From IMG/VR virus record IMGVR_UViG_3300031555_001876: a stretch of 55,230 nt of DNA; one strand, written 5' to 3'. Position numbers and translations under genes: made by a program. The notes under the pieces are model-generated. The model was given only the letters and a program-made list of their open reading frames with translations, was not told the DNA's origin and did not search any database. This DNA comes from a virus. Below, piece by piece: positions 36,713 to 38,800 of this stretch (position 1 is its first letter; each line of letters starts with the position of its first letter).

Positions 36713-38334
36713 TGAGCATTACTCCTTTTAGTGTTTTGCCCGAAGAGCATCAGAAGCAGTTTCGTAATGCAGTAAAAGAGTGGGTTTATGATTATTCTGA
36801 TGATGAGCCTAGTGAAGTAATGGCTCCTATGGATAAAATCTTTGCTCCTTGGAATGAAGCGAAGAACGAGTATCTTTTTAAAATGTTTGGTAATGAACTT
36901 ATGATTACCAAGCCTATCTGTTACAAAAAGGCAGAAAAAGATATTGTTGTAGAAATTAGAGAAAAAATTTTCAATACTAACCTTGAATTTATTCGTGAGA
37001 TTAGAGAAAAGGTTATTTATGCTTATGATTATAGAGACCCTATGTGGGATGGTGTTGATGGTAGATGGCATCTTGATTACCTGTTGGATTTATACGGCTT
37101 GATGAAAAACGCTTATCTTGAAAGCAGTTTTTCTTTGCCGTCTCCTAAAGGCGGAAAGCCCATTAAGGTAACTACCGGATGTAAACTCATTCGTCTTTTG
37201 GGTAAAATTGCTAAAGAATATGACCTTAAAGGATTTGAAGAATTTAGATTGATTCATTCTATGATTCTTAATGACAAAGAAATTAAGGGTGATTTGGTAA
37301 TTTCTATCCATCCTAATGACTATGCAACTATGTCTGATAATAATTATGACTGGGATAGTTGTATGAGTTGGTGGAATGATGGTGGATATATTCAGGGTAC
37401 TGTAGAGATGATGAATTCTCCTATGGTAGTTGTCGCTTATATTGATAACTTTAATAAGCCTATTCAGTTTGGCGGTGGAGAATGGAGTAATAAAAAGTGG
37501 CGTGAACTTTTTATTGTAAATGAAAATGTTATTTCTGAAATTTGCGCTTATCCCTATCCAAATGAGTCAATTACTAATATCGTATTGTGTGAATTGCGTG
37601 AACTTGCAGTAAAGAACCTTGGATGGGAACAATTTGCCCATAGCCATATTGTTACTGGTGAAGCAACTGGAAATCATTTCATTTATTTTGATAAGTTTAA
37701 TTTCTGTTTTGAATGCGGTCATATGTATAATGATTTCAGATATCAGCATAATATGATTATTAGTAATGACATTAAAAGCGGCAGTTTTGATATTTACTAC
37801 TCTGGTAAAAGTGAATGCCTTTGGTGCGGTGCCACCTATGAAGGTCAAGCAAGATATGAAAACTTTGAACACGAAGGCACTTTGATTGCTGAATGCTGCG
37901 ATAGCACTTGGACTTGTCCTTGTTGTGGCGAACGTTCTACTGGAGAGCGATTCCATACTGAAGACGGCGATGTATGTGAAGATTGTTGGGAAAATAATGT
38001 AAGTGAATGTGATGAGTGCGGCGATTTCTTTATGGTAGATAATGTTGATACCTACTATATTGGCAATGAAGATGAAGGCTGGATTGATATGGGATATTCA
38101 GTTAATCTTTGTTATAATTGCAGAGATAGTGAACTTAATCTTATGGTTAATGTTGATACTTATCCTGTTCTTAATATGCTGTCTGGTTATCAGTATAGAA
38201 AATATATTGATATTAGATATCTAACCGAGTATGGTATTAACAAGTTCTTTAAGGGAGAATACACTTCTGACAATATAGAAGAATATGAGCCTCTTGTTCA
38301 AAGATATAGTATGGATAAAAGATTTTATGGTTGA
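36713..38334 (+). CDS. Large hypothetical protein of about 540 aa with a C-terminal cluster of at least 5 zinc ribbons. It is a paralogue of the gene at 41292..42746.
   Basis: The core shared with the 41292 product is HP(N/L)D(Y/F)...S(D/E)N.Y.W.SC. Both proteins have a C-terminal run of CxxC...CxxC ribbons. Confidence 0.55.
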
Positions 38335-38397
38335 TTTTTTATAAAAAATATTATATAATATATATGTAAGATAAAGAAAGACACTAGCAGCAATTAT

Positions 38398-38500
38398 AAA
38401 CTTGCCTGTCTAGCCGGGGGTCGCAGGTTCGAGTCCTGCCTGGGTCGCCAATATGGCCCAGTAACTCAGTTGGTAGAGTGACGTTATAATCGTGTCTTGT
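38398..38500 (+). ncRNA. tRNA-like fragments. A 3' half (T-arm plus acceptor plus CCA) at 38398-38455 is followed, after a 4-nt gap, by a 5' half (acceptor, D-arm and an anticodon arm with a UAA-like loop) at 38460-38500. The acceptor strands of the two halves are complementary.
   Basis: gcaggttcgagtcctgc-ctgggtcg-cca, then atat, then ggcccagta-actcagttggtagagt-gacgttataatcgtgtc. Both pieces are flanked by identical promoter repeats. Confidence 0.35.
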
Positions 38501-38800
38501 TTAATTAAAAAAATCATTATTTGATTTTTTATAAAAAATATTATATAATATATATGTAAGATAAGTCGGAATCTTACATATAAGACTGACACCCTTATTT
38601 TTTTCAGAATTATTTCTTTGCGAAACTATCAAGTTATGAGGTTCTTGATAGTATAATAAACTAAAAAACCTCTCTATTTTAGATAGAGAAATTCTTTATT
38701 GACAAATTTAAAAAAATATGATATAATATATATACAAAGTGAGAGAAAACCTCACTAATAAATAAAAATTTTAAAAATGAAAGGTTAAGGTGTTTATACT

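What the first reader, a model, noticed from the sequence alone, without database searches (positions are those of the whole stretch)
38330..38570. Apparent tRNA halves in permuted order between two identical promoter repeats
The segment 38398-38455 is a clean tRNA 3' half: T-arm gcagg-ttcgagt-cctgc, acceptor 3' strand ctgggtc, then g and CCA. It has no matching 5' half upstream.

Four nucleotides later, 38460-38500 is a clean 5' half: acceptor ggcccag, D-arm actc-agttggtag-agt, and an anticodon arm with loop tataatc (UAA). It ends without a T-arm. The two acceptor strands are mutually complementary, giving 7 bp with one G-U.

So the order is 3'-half then 5'-half, as in circularly permuted tRNA genes. 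Alternatively this is the remnant of a recombination between tandem tRNA copies. Both flanks are the same 45-bp promoter repeat. Related tRNA-like pieces are preceded by a conserved ACAGCAAAT leader at 45260, 45645 and 50150. The piece at 50170-50212 has a T-arm and acceptor but no 5' half.
Basis: seen in the sequence. Interest (0 to 1): 0.6.

Follow-up and report, generated by a model that had tools for sequence, protein, structure and literature searches.

The report
Phage Y-RNA-like permuted tRNA mimic
The "tRNA halves in the wrong order" are real, but they form one small RNA: a whole tRNA shape with a closed acceptor end, held in a conserved clamp that elsewhere sits beside genes for a Ro60-like protein, so it is best read as a new variety of bacterial/phage Y RNA.

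Summary
The permuted layout is real. Window 38378-38499 (+), behind its own promoter, encodes a tRNA circularly permuted between nt 26 and 27. The order is anticodon-like arm (GUC), variable loop, T-arm, acceptor 3' strand, GCCA, AUAU, acceptor 5' strand, D-arm.

The ends are clamped by a 7-bp stem (AAGACAC/GUGUCUU+G) next to an unpaired CAGCAA motif. This clamp defines a large RNA family:
- 443 hits on the tRNA strand against 2 on the opposite strand of phage tRNA arrays.
- Covariation at several clamp positions.
- 104 unique members with the same permuted module. 27 of them keep NCCA after the acceptor 3' strand.

So the finding is a Y-RNA-like tRNA mimic, closest to YrlA. It fails Rfam YrlA membership: 36.7 bits against a threshold of 69, no GNCGAA motif, and no Ro60-type gene in the window. 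It is not a decayed tRNA, and I see no support for a split tRNA gene. I found no Rfam family or paper describing the clamp.

The parts
38331..38375 (+). Promoter repeat, copy 1 (-35 TTGATT 38331-38336, 17-nt spacer, -10 TATAAT 38354-38359). It drives the RNA.
   Evidence: identical copy at 38521, one-mismatch copies at 43120 and 43351, 0 expected by chance.
38378..38499 (+). The whole RNA element: clamp plus permuted tRNA-like body, 122 nt.
   Evidence: Descriptor hit, segment map, Rfam YrlA 36.7 bits at 38419-38479.
38378..38384 (+). Clamp stem P1, 5' strand AAGACAC.
   Evidence: Pairs with 38492-38498. P1 position 6 pairs in 89/89 unique members with all 4 Watson-Crick types. Positions 1, 4 and 5 covary in the wider set.
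38388..38393 (+). Conserved unpaired CAGCAA motif, the inferred protein-docking site.
   Evidence: Fixed by the descriptor. The flanking A2, G3 and A10 were left free yet are 97%, 97% and 87% conserved. It sits where the CGAA motif sits in YrlA/Yrl RNAs (PMC4201824, PMC12135203).
38393..38399 (+). Possible second helix P2, 5' strand AUUAUAA, pairing with 38484-38490. Inferred for this copy only.
   Evidence: Complementarity read from the sequence. Energy is about the same with or without it. Not tested by covariation.
38401..38417 (+). Anticodon-arm-like hairpin: CUUGC / CUGUCUA / GCCGG (4 of 5 pairs, U33, GUC, U37).
   Evidence: A canonical arm at this position occurs in 17/82 relatives, against 1-7 in offset controls and a shuffle mean of 2.3.
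38418..38422 (+). Variable loop GGGUC (C48 can pair with G15).
   Evidence: Read from the sequence.
38423..38439 (+). T-arm GCAGG UUCGAGU CCUGC.
38440..38461 (+). Closed acceptor hairpin: 3' strand 38440-38446, G73-CCA 38447-38450, AUAU 38451-38454, 5' strand 38455-38461. Predicted RNase P site between 38454 and 38455.
   Evidence: 7-bp stem conserved with 6 pair types per position. NCCA at this offset in 27/104 relatives, and 0 at other offsets. Cleavage is inferred from M. smegmatis YrlA (PMC4201824).
38464..38479 (+). D-arm ACUC AGUUGGUA GAGU, preceded by U8 A9 at 38462-38463 and followed by G26 at 38480.
38492..38499 (+). Clamp stem P1, 3' strand GUGUCUU, plus the trailing G required by the search descriptor.
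38521..38565 (+). Promoter repeat, copy 2. It starts the next, unrelated short transcript.
50140..50255 (+). Second permuted member in the window: clamp, CAGCAA, hairpin, T-arm AUAGG-UUCGAGU-CCUAU, closed acceptor hairpin without CCA, D-arm.
   Evidence: Model R1 40.0 bits, E 2.7e-8. Rfam YrlA 25.8 bits.
45253..45376 (+). Clamp element enclosing an unpermuted tRNA-like body (ARAGORN 'tRNA-Val gac' 45282-45360, no CCA).
45627..45716 (+). Probable variant member: stem AAGGCAGAA/UUCUGCCUU+G, CAGCAA at 45645, T-arm only.
   Evidence: Read from the sequence; not a descriptor hit.
46415..46486 (+). Short clamp element.
   Evidence: Model R1 49.4 bits, E 7e-11.
49892..49955 (+). Short clamp element directly behind a promoter.
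   Evidence: Model R1 56.5 bits, E 7.4e-13.

Best explanation
38378-38499 encodes a stable non-coding RNA of the Y-RNA kind.

Shown:
- Its 5' and 3' ends can pair into a 7-bp clamp next to an unpaired CAGCAA motif.
- The interior has every element of a tRNA (anticodon-like arm, variable loop, T-arm, 7-bp acceptor stem, U8/A9, D-arm, G26). These are circularly permuted so that the acceptor stem is a closed hairpin and the chain ends lie between nt 26 and 27.
- The clamp defines a large, strand-specific, covarying RNA family.
- In bacteria and in many phages the family sits immediately upstream of a protein whose predicted fold is Ro60/Rsr.

Inferred:
- The CAGCAA bulge plus clamp is the docking site for that Ro60-like ring protein. 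This protein would be host-encoded or encoded outside this window. The inference rests on the CGAA bulge of YrlA/Yrl RNAs.
- The tRNA-shaped module is the effector end. It would recruit or titrate tRNA-recognising factors such as PNPase, RNA repair enzymes, modification enzymes or anticodon nucleases during infection.
- The acceptor loop reads G-CCA-AUAU-G, like the tRNA-tRNA junctions of this phage. RNase P probably cuts before G38455 and the 3' side is trimmed to CCA. That would give a two-piece, CCA-ended tRNA mimic held together by the acceptor stem, the clamp and the D/T-loop contacts, as reported for M. smegmatis YrlA.
For: Anatomy:
- Sequence and segment map.
- All canonical tertiary partners are present, read from the sequence: U8-A14, G15-C48, G18G19 with U55C56, G53-C61.
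- Rfam YrlA is the only meaningful family hit: 36.7 bits, E 2e-6, model positions 27-81. The sister element at 50173-50238 scores 25.8 bits.

RNA family:
- Two exact pattern scans of IMG/VR gave 92 and 89 stretches.
- The looser descriptor gave 443 hits on the tRNA strand against 2 on the other strand, 376 of them unique.
- P1 position 6 pairs in 89/89 members with all four Watson-Crick types. Stem variants AAGGC/GCCUU, UAGAC/GUCUA and GAGAC/GUCUC also occur.

Permuted modules:
- 128 against 17-27 in controls.
- 104 unique scaffolded modules; acceptor 88-95% paired with 6 pair types per position; slid controls 43-49%.
- NCCA in 27/104 at the exact tRNA offset and 0 at the other offsets.

Protein partner:
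- The nearest downstream ORF is one DUF2828+DUF7788 family in 55/98 bacterial clusters.
- The gene is present in 75/93 genomic and 80 viral loci.
- An element lies within 150 nt upstream, on the same strand, in 53/66 genomic and 42/74 viral loci.
- Protein-first check: 4 of 4 loci fetched by protein identity carry 2-7 elements in the gene-less gap upstream, with RtcB downstream.

Precedents:
- Phage Ro60 binding Yrl RNAs and host PNPase (PMC12135203).
Against: - No Ro60-like gene is in the 55-kb window. A profile HMM of 113 family members found nothing, and Pfam found no TROVE/DUF2828 in the 20 larger window ORFs scanned.
- The covariance model built from short members misses this copy. Its membership rests on the descriptor and on module comparison.
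- The position before CAGCAA is G here, where 87% of members have A.
- The proposed fold is 8 kcal/mol above the MFE, and the MFE z-score is only -1.67. Thermodynamics alone does not support it.
- One mismatch and a U37 make the anticodon-like arm non-canonical.
- Binding of the RNA to the Ro60-like protein, expression, and RNase P cleavage are all untested.
- The loci were collected through the RNA pattern. The reverse association was checked on only 3 protein identities, giving 4 loci of which 3 have nearly the same gene layout.
Confidence: 0.65

Rival explanations
1. It is a tRNA decoy or sponge that works without any Ro60-like protein. The clamp only stabilises the RNA or marks it for processing out of tRNA-array transcripts. 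The displayed tRNA parts titrate host anticodon nucleases or other tRNA-binding defence or modification enzymes.
For: - No Ro60-like gene in the window.
- In phages the elements are embedded in tRNA arrays, often 1-4 nt after a CCA.
- 107/205 short members display an anticodon-arm-like hairpin, most often CUUUUAA (Lys-like, 20) and CUGUUAA (Asn-like, 10); shuffles give a mean of 42 and a maximum of 53. tRNA-Lys is a known anticodon-nuclease target (general knowledge; PMC11464382).
- The mimic and the phage tRNA-Asp share an unusual U37.
Against: - A purely structural clamp would not need an invariant single-stranded CAGCAA and the conserved A2 and G3.
- The tight, same-strand adjacency to the Ro60-like gene in bacteria and in 42/74 viral loci would be unexplained.
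- This reading is compatible with the best explanation as a downstream function rather than a true alternative.
Confidence: 0.2
2. It is a true circularly permuted tRNA gene. The transcript would be circularised or otherwise rejoined and then opened at the acceptor end, giving a working tRNA-Asp(GUC) for translation.
For: - All four arms, the discriminator G and an encoded CCA are present in the order 27-76 then 1-26.
- The CCA-AUAU-G junction looks like the phage's own tRNA-tRNA junctions.
- NCCA recurs in 27/104 relatives.
Against: - No bulge-helix-bulge motif, and no known bacterial or phage enzyme set for this pathway.
- The break is at 26/27 and is bridged by about 30 nt of conserved clamp that would remain attached.
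- 77/104 relatives have no CCA, and many have 3-5-nt loops in place of an anticodon loop.
- The same clamp carries non-tRNA inserts.
- The phage already has a normal tRNA-Asp(GUC) at 43932-44007.
- The anticodon stem has a mismatch, and the E. coli AspRS identity elements G10 and C38 (from general knowledge, not tested) are absent.
Confidence: 0.06
3. It is a decayed remnant of unequal recombination between tandem tRNA genes, with no function.
For: The junction CCA-AUAU-G is what an ordinary tRNA-tRNA boundary looks like in this phage.
Against: - It has its own strong promoter.
- The two acceptor strands are mutually complementary (7/7), which neighbouring tRNAs are not expected to be.
- 104 unique relatives keep the same layout with compensatory changes, against 17-27 chance junctions in controls.
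- The flanks form the conserved clamp.
Confidence: 0.03
4. It is a two-piece (permuted) tmRNA-like gene.
For: It has the same topology as two-piece tmRNA genes: T-arm, acceptor 3' strand, CCA, spacer, acceptor 5' strand.
Against: - ARAGORN, which detects permuted tmRNA, reports none.
- The Rfam tmRNA hit is 6 bits.
- The 3' piece is about 45 nt, with no pseudoknots, resume codon or tag frame.
- A full D-arm and an anticodon-like arm are present.
Confidence: 0.01

Closest known systems
YrlA-type bacterial/phage Y RNAs (Rfam RF02553; Chen et al. 2014, PMC4201824)
   Same: - 5'/3' terminal stem next to a conserved single-stranded motif.
- A tRNA-like module in the order (V loop) T-arm, closed acceptor-stem hairpin, D-arm.
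- A 7-bp acceptor stem with a cleavable loop and a CCA end, as in M. smegmatis YrlA.
- In relatives, the genes lie just upstream of a Ro60-fold protein, with RtcB nearby.
- Several Y RNAs per locus, short ones (YrlB-like) together with tRNA-like ones.
   Different: - The motif is CAGCAA after a W-A-G-R-C-N-C stem, not GNCGAAN0-1G.
- The Rfam score is 36.7 against a threshold of 69, and only model positions 27-81 match.
- The partner protein is DUF2828/DUF7788, recognisable as Ro60-like only by fold, not a Pfam TROVE protein.
- This copy keeps an anticodon-like arm.
- The family also displays bare anticodon-like hairpins and unpermuted tRNA bodies.
- In phages the genes are interleaved with tRNA arrays.
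- No partner gene is present in this window.
Thermus phage phiLo Yrl1/Yrl2 with phage Ro60 (PMC12135203)
   Different: The phiLo RNAs carry CGAA and lie directly upstream of a TROVE gene. Here the motif is CAGCAA, and this copy stands alone behind its own promoter.
Circularly permuted tRNA genes of Cyanidioschyzon merolae and some archaea (from general knowledge, not checked in a paper here)
   Same: The 3' portion with CCA is encoded upstream of the 5' portion, separated by a short spacer.
   Different: Those genes are broken in or near the anticodon loop or other loops. They are rejoined through a BHB motif by the splicing endonuclease and a ligase, and they yield ordinary tRNAs. Here the break is at 26/27, no BHB is present, and the ends carry a conserved protein-type clamp.
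Two-piece (permuted) tmRNA (from general knowledge)
   Same: Permuted acceptor and T-arm topology. The predicted product is two RNA pieces held by base pairing with a CCA end.
   Different: No mRNA-like tag region or pseudoknots, and the RNA is far smaller. ARAGORN and Rfam are negative.

Membership tests
Rfam YrlA (RF02553) / YrlA as defined by Chen et al. 2014 | Covariance-model score at or above the gathering threshold (69 bits) | tested here: not met
   36.7 bits, E 2.1e-6, only model positions 27-81 of 114.
Rfam YrlA (RF02553) / YrlA as defined by Chen et al. 2014 | GNCGAAN0-1G motif near the 5' end (Rsr site) | tested here: not met
   The 5' region reads AAGACACUAGCAGCAAUU. The motif definition is from PMC4201824.
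Rfam YrlA (RF02553) / YrlA as defined by Chen et al. 2014 | tRNA-like domain: T-arm, closed acceptor-stem hairpin, D-arm, with tRNA tertiary partners | tested here: met
Rfam YrlA (RF02553) / YrlA as defined by Chen et al. 2014 | Within 4 kb of, and on the same strand as, a Ro60/TROVE gene | tested here: not met
   Flanking ORFs 34344-43064 have no TROVE/DUF2828 hit. The family HMM finds nothing in the whole window.
CAGCAA-clamp RNA family (defined here) | 7-bp terminal stem (consensus W-A-G-R-C-N-C) closing the RNA, followed by a G | tested here: met
   AAGACAC / GUGUCUU + G. Descriptor hit at 38378-38499.
CAGCAA-clamp RNA family (defined here) | CAGCAA exactly 3 nt after the 5' strand of the stem | tested here: met
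   38388-38393. The preceding base is G, as in 20/376 members.
CAGCAA-clamp RNA family (defined here) | Detected by covariance model R1 built from short members | tested here: not met
   Not among hits with E <= 1. The model copes poorly with a 90-nt insert: it also misaligns 45253, although it does find 50140.
CAGCAA-clamp RNA family (defined here) | Same strand as the neighbouring tRNA genes, or driven by the tRNA-type promoter | tested here: met
   + strand, like all 14 tRNAs in the window. The same promoter repeat precedes tRNA-Leu at 43257.
CAGCAA-clamp RNA family (defined here) | Adjacent Ro60-like DUF2828/DUF7788 gene | tested here: not met
   Absent from the window. Present in 80 viral and 75/93 genomic relatives.
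Permuted tRNA gene (C. merolae type) | 3' portion upstream of 5' portion with complementary acceptor strands | tested here: met
Permuted tRNA gene (C. merolae type) | Bulge-helix-bulge motif where the transcript ends meet, allowing endonuclease/ligase circularisation | tested here: not met
   The junction is a 7-bp stem, an 8-nt/1-nt asymmetric bulge, then a 7-bp helix. There are no 3-nt/4-bp/3-nt BHB elements.
Permuted tRNA gene (C. merolae type) | Mature product is an ordinary, translating tRNA | not testable with these tools
   Needs RNA end mapping and aminoacylation or ribosome assays.
Two-piece tmRNA | Tag reading frame with resume codon, plus pseudoknots | tested here: not met
   ARAGORN reports no tmRNA. 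Rfam tmRNA scores 6 bits.
Canonical tRNA gene | Called by ARAGORN or Rfam RF00005 in native order | tested here: not met
   Re-permuted constructs are called by ARAGORN, but so are 45-52 of 81 controls with a shuffled segment, so that test is uninformative.
Ro60/Rsr (for the partner protein of the family) | Helical ring domain plus C-terminal vWA domain with a MIDAS motif, matching Ro60 over the full length | tested here: met
   - AF2 model pLDDT 78.
- Foldseek top 12 hits are all Ro60/Rsr.
- D304, S306 and S308 are invariant; the motif reads DTSGS in the query protein.
- Sequence-level TROVE membership is not met.

The most novel reading that the evidence does not exclude
The finding may be one member of a very large family of modular Y-like RNAs that I could not find described. 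In this reading:
- One conserved clamp (7-bp stem plus CAGCAA) docks a divergent Ro60-like protein. This is the DUF2828/DUF7788 family, with at least 7,950 relatives and no assigned function.
- The clamp presents interchangeable tRNA parts: bare anticodon-like arms, T-arms, whole tRNA bodies and circularly permuted tRNAs.
- About a quarter of the permuted ones keep a discriminator plus CCA. They would be processed into two-piece, possibly aminoacylatable, tRNA mimics.
- Large gut and rumen phages interleave dozens of these RNAs with their tRNA arrays, plausibly to sense, repair or shield tRNAs attacked by host defence nucleases.
Probability: 0.35. Interest if true: 0.85.

Novelty: new variant of a known kind. 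Interest (0 to 1): 0.68.

Why it matters
What the tRNA-like module of bacterial Y RNAs is for remains an open question. This family offers hundreds of natural variants of that module on one constant clamp: anticodon arm only, T-arm only, whole tRNA, permuted tRNA with or without CCA. It also offers an uncharacterised Ro60-like partner, an RtcB link in bacteria, and heavy use by phages that carry large tRNA sets.

That makes several things directly testable: which tRNA features matter, whether a Y RNA can carry an amino acid, and whether Ro60-type particles take part in the phage-host conflict over tRNA cleavage. It would also give a function to the DUF2828/DUF7788 proteins. For annotation, it explains many 'odd tRNA' and 'tRNA fragment' calls in phage tRNA arrays.

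Tried and rejected
- BLAST of 37500-39500 and of the upstream 544-aa ORF against 50,697 phage records: no match.
- Pfam, PHROGs and PDB on the 544-aa ORF: nothing but a weak rubredoxin-like Cys cluster, so it is not Ro60.
- Exact scan for the acceptor junction in IMG/VR: no hit.
- Relatives found through the radical-SAM ORF (L001-L018): no synteny and no clamp elements.
- Re-permuting the modules and asking ARAGORN to call them: 61/81 called, but 45-52/81 were also called with shuffled anticodon segments, so the test was discarded.
- Covariance model R1 from short members: it finds 3 window copies but not the finding itself.
- Thermodynamic folding: z = -1.67, and the proposed fold is not the MFE.
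- Self-cleaving ribozymes: theta/HDV-like was rejected on topology. Those start with G1 at the cleavage site and form a nested double pseudoknot, whereas here the two termini pair with each other (PMC10879173). Rfam evalue scans gave no hit to any ribozyme family on the clamp elements; the only ribozyme hit in the tRNA region was the twister at 46153-46233.
- Type III antitoxin repeat arrays, MITE-like inverted repeats and RNase III processing stems: rejected. The units are not direct repeats, the stem covaries, and it is only 7 bp.
- Rfam 15 has no family for the clamp, in phage or bacterial copies.
- Sequence and profile searches of the partner protein against the PDB found only the vWA part. 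PADLOC and NCBIfam found nothing.
- Literature searches found no description of this RNA family or of a DUF2828 function. Two Y-RNA reviews were not held in the library, so prior description cannot be excluded.
- Extending the window through the look-up of encoding contigs gave only short contigs.
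Full report
**1. The observation**

- T-arm GCAGG-UUCGAGU-CCUGC (38423-38439).
- Acceptor 3' strand CUGGGUC (38440-38446), G + CCA (38447-38450), AUAU.
- Acceptor 5' strand GGCCCAG (38455-38461), giving 7 bp with one G.U.
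- UA, then D-arm ACUC-AGUUGGUA-GAGU (38464-38479).

The 45-bp promoter repeat is identical at 38331-38375 and 38521-38565. It recurs with one mismatch at 43120 and 43351, ahead of tRNA genes. ARAGORN and Rfam-tRNA do not call the element.

Two details are wrong:
- The supposed anticodon arm with loop UAUAAUC is the 3' strand of a terminal stem.
- The element at 50140-50255 does have its 5' half.

**2. Anatomy**

Reading outward from the T-arm, the 22 nt upstream fit tRNA positions 27-48:
- CUUGC / CUGUCUA / GCCGG: 4 of 5 pairs, U33, anticodon-like GUC, U37.
- Then GGGUC as the variable loop.

After the D-arm comes G26. The RNA is therefore a complete tRNA, circularly permuted with the chain break between nt 26 and 27 and the acceptor stem closed by the loop GCCAAUAU. 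All usual tertiary partners are present (U8-A14, G15-C48, G18G19 with U55C56, G53-C61), read directly from the sequence.

The two chain ends are tied by AAGACAC (38378-38384) pairing with GUGUCUU (38492-38498), followed by G. An unpaired CAGCAA lies 3 nt after the 5' strand. A further helix AUUAUAA/UUAUAAU is possible in this copy.

The proposed fold is -31.7 kcal/mol, against an MFE of -39.9, and the MFE z-score is only -1.67. The case therefore rests on comparison, not on energy.

**3. A family, not an accident**

The same stem and motif recur at 45253, 46415, 49892 and 50140, with a variant at 45627.

Collection scans:
- The pattern AAGACNCNNACAGCAAWT(T)...GNGTCTTG, with gaps of 25-55 and 85-115 nt, found 92 and 89 stretches in IMG/VR and 93 in GTDB genomes. 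Roughly one per viral scan and about eight for the genome scan would be my estimate for chance.
- A looser descriptor asked for any 7-nt X, 3 nt, CAGCAA, up to 150 nt, the reverse complement of X, then G. It gave 443 hits on the tRNA strand and 2 on the opposite strand of the viral loci, 376 of them unique.

Conservation and covariation:
- Positions the descriptor left free are conserved: A2 97%, G3 97%, A10 87%.
- Stem position 6 pairs in 89/89 members with all four Watson-Crick types.
- Positions 1, 4 and 5 covary (AAGGC/GCCUU, UAGAC/GUCUA, GAGAC/GUCUC).

Context:
- The viral loci are dense tRNA arrays, with 1,569 tRNAs in 1.6 Mb.
- All 182 elements with a tRNA in the locus share its strand, and 108 lie within 20 nt of a tRNA or overlap an ARAGORN call.

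No Rfam 15 family matches the clamp in phage or bacterial copies.

**4. What the clamp carries**

- Short members (50-85 nt) carry one hairpin. 107/205 have a canonical anticodon-arm geometry, against a shuffle mean of 42 and maximum of 53. The most frequent loops are CUUUUAA (20) and CUGUUAA (10).
- Of 81 long members matching the strict AAGAC pattern, 64 carry a T-arm.
- Some enclose an unpermuted D-arm, anticodon arm and T-arm body. The window's 45253-45376 is one of these.
- Many carry the permuted layout of the finding.

A scaffold-independent scan for T-arm, 7-bp hairpin, NN, D-arm found 128 modules, against 17-27 when the downstream partner was swapped. With relaxed thresholds there are 104 unique scaffolded modules. 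Their acceptor hairpin is 88-95% paired, with six pair types at every position, against 43-49% for slid partners.

An anticodon-like arm at the canonical distance is present in 17/82, against 1-7 in offset controls. The rest have a hairpin with a short loop there.

In 27/104 the loop begins with a discriminator plus CCA (G in 20). CCA never occurs at offsets 0, 2 or 3. The finding's GCCA is therefore a recurrent, selected feature.

**5. The protein partner**

In bacterial genomes the elements form tandem arrays of 2-8, usually without tRNAs. These genomes are mostly Clostridia and Bacilli MAGs, but include isolates such as Clostridium tertium DSM 2485, C. gasigenes DSM 12272 and Ruminococcus flavefaciens YAD2003.

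Linkage:
- The nearest downstream ORF is one ~497-aa family in 55/98 clusters. It is Pfam DUF2828 + DUF7788, with D304, S306 and S308 invariant in the alignment (DTSGS in the query protein).
- tblastn finds it in 75/93 genomic and 80 viral loci.
- An element lies within 150 nt upstream on the same strand in 53/66 and 42/74 of them.
- RtcB is present in 21/93 genomic loci and a WYL/WCX-domain protein in 29/93.
- Going the other way, four loci fetched by protein identity alone show WYL-domain protein (or, in one locus, an unannotated ORF of the same size), ORF, a ~1-kb gene-less gap with 2-7 clamp elements, the DUF2828 protein, then RtcB.

Fold:
- Sequence methods do not see Ro60.

A regulator, Y RNAs, a Ro60 protein and RtcB are the same components found in the Salmonella rsr-yrlBA-rtcBA locus (PMC4201824, PMC7790460).

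**6. Interpretation**

The finding is a Y-RNA-like RNA. Known bacterial and phage Y RNAs have a 5'/3' stem, a bulge with a CGAA-type motif that contacts Ro60, and in YrlA a tRNA-like module in the order T-arm, closed acceptor stem, D-arm. M. smegmatis YrlA has a 7-bp acceptor stem, is cut by RNase P in that loop, and receives CCA (PMC4201824). Phage phiLo Ro60 binds two such RNAs and host PNPase (PMC12135203).

Here the layout is the same, and Rfam YrlA is the only meaningful hit (36.7 bits). But the motif is CAGCAA and the partner is a divergent Ro60-like family.

I infer, without proof, that:
- The clamp and CAGCAA dock the Ro60-like protein.
- The tRNA-shaped body engages tRNA-recognising factors.
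- This copy is cut by RNase P before G38455 to give a two-piece, CCA-ended mimic.

The main weakness is that the 55-kb window has no Ro60-like gene. The protein would have to come from elsewhere in the phage or from the host. Otherwise this copy acts as a free decoy, which is the main rival.

**7. Rivals**

- A true permuted tRNA gene is unlikely. There is no BHB, the break is at 26/27, the conserved clamp is retained, most relatives lack CCA or an anticodon loop, and a normal tRNA-Asp is present at 43932.
- A recombination remnant is excluded by conservation and covariation.
- Two-piece tmRNA is excluded by the lack of a tag region.

**8. Novelty**

tRNA-mimicking Y RNAs, including phage ones, are known. 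The CAGCAA clamp, its DUF2828/DUF7788 Ro60-like partner, the interchangeable tRNA parts, the retained NCCA, and the massive presence in phage tRNA arrays were not found in Rfam 15 or in the papers I could search. Two Y-RNA reviews were not available. I therefore rate it a new variant of a known kind.

Noticed in passing
window 46153-46233 (+): Twister-P1-like self-cleaving ribozyme: 41.6 bits (threshold 67.2), E 3.7e-8 on a 241-nt scan. It keeps the conserved UUAA, GCC, GGUCCCAAGCCC and GAGGGA blocks and has one extra hairpin. It ends 5 nt before tRNA-Ser (46239), so it may take part in processing the tRNA array.
   Followed up: partly
window 43932-44007 and 38406-38412: The phage's ordinary tRNA-Asp(GUC) has anticodon loop CUGUCUC, and the permuted mimic has CUGUCUA. 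Both carry U at position 37, where tRNAs normally have a purine. This may be a shared adaptation, for example to evade an anticodon nuclease.
   Followed up: no
window 38566-38625 (+): The second copy of the promoter repeat is followed by a hairpin (GUAAGAU...AUCUUAC) and then a U-run. This looks like another short transcript of unknown nature, with no clamp motif.
   Followed up: no
window 45282-45360 (+), inside 45253-45376: ARAGORN calls a 79-nt 'tRNA-Val(gac)' with no CCA and an acceptor mismatch. Rfam reaches the tRNA threshold only in the permissive scan (33.1 bits). It sits inside a clamp element, so it is probably a Y-like RNA body and not a working tRNA.
   Followed up: partly
L173, L136, L135, L178, L147, L174, L142, L121 (IMG/VR loci): Eight long clamp elements carry AAAUACCUCCUUUGAU. 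This resembles the anti-Shine-Dalgarno tail of 16S rRNA. Read on the other strand, it is a strong SD followed by a tiny ORF.
   Followed up: no
window 32386-36621 (+): A cluster of likely nucleotide/NAD-salvage and RNA-repair-type genes: two PRPP-synthetase-like ORFs (34344-35135, 35770-36621), an isochorismatase/nicotinamidase-like ORF (35220-35801), and an ORF with weak NTP_transf_2/RlaP hits (32386-33228).
   Followed up: no
window 43470-43735 and 44010-44600 (+): Long gene-less stretches inside the tRNA region, richer in G+C. Rfam gives only a weak tRNA-like hit at 44069-44134 (28.4 bits). They may hold further structured RNAs.
   Followed up: no
L292 2751-6758; L293, L294, L295 likewise: Bacterial operon layout: WYL-domain protein (in L295 an unannotated ORF of the same size), a ~300-aa ORF, a ~1-kb array of 2-7 clamp RNAs (in L292 with a tRNA at 3792-3862), the DUF2828/DUF7788 Ro60-like protein, then RtcB. 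In two of the three layouts it lies next to a type I restriction gene.
   Followed up: partly
window 36700-38334 (+): The 544-aa ORF just upstream of the finding has a Cys-rich middle part (CxxC pairs, weak rubredoxin-like hits). It has no relatives in Pfam, PHROGs, the PDB or the phage records.
   Followed up: partly
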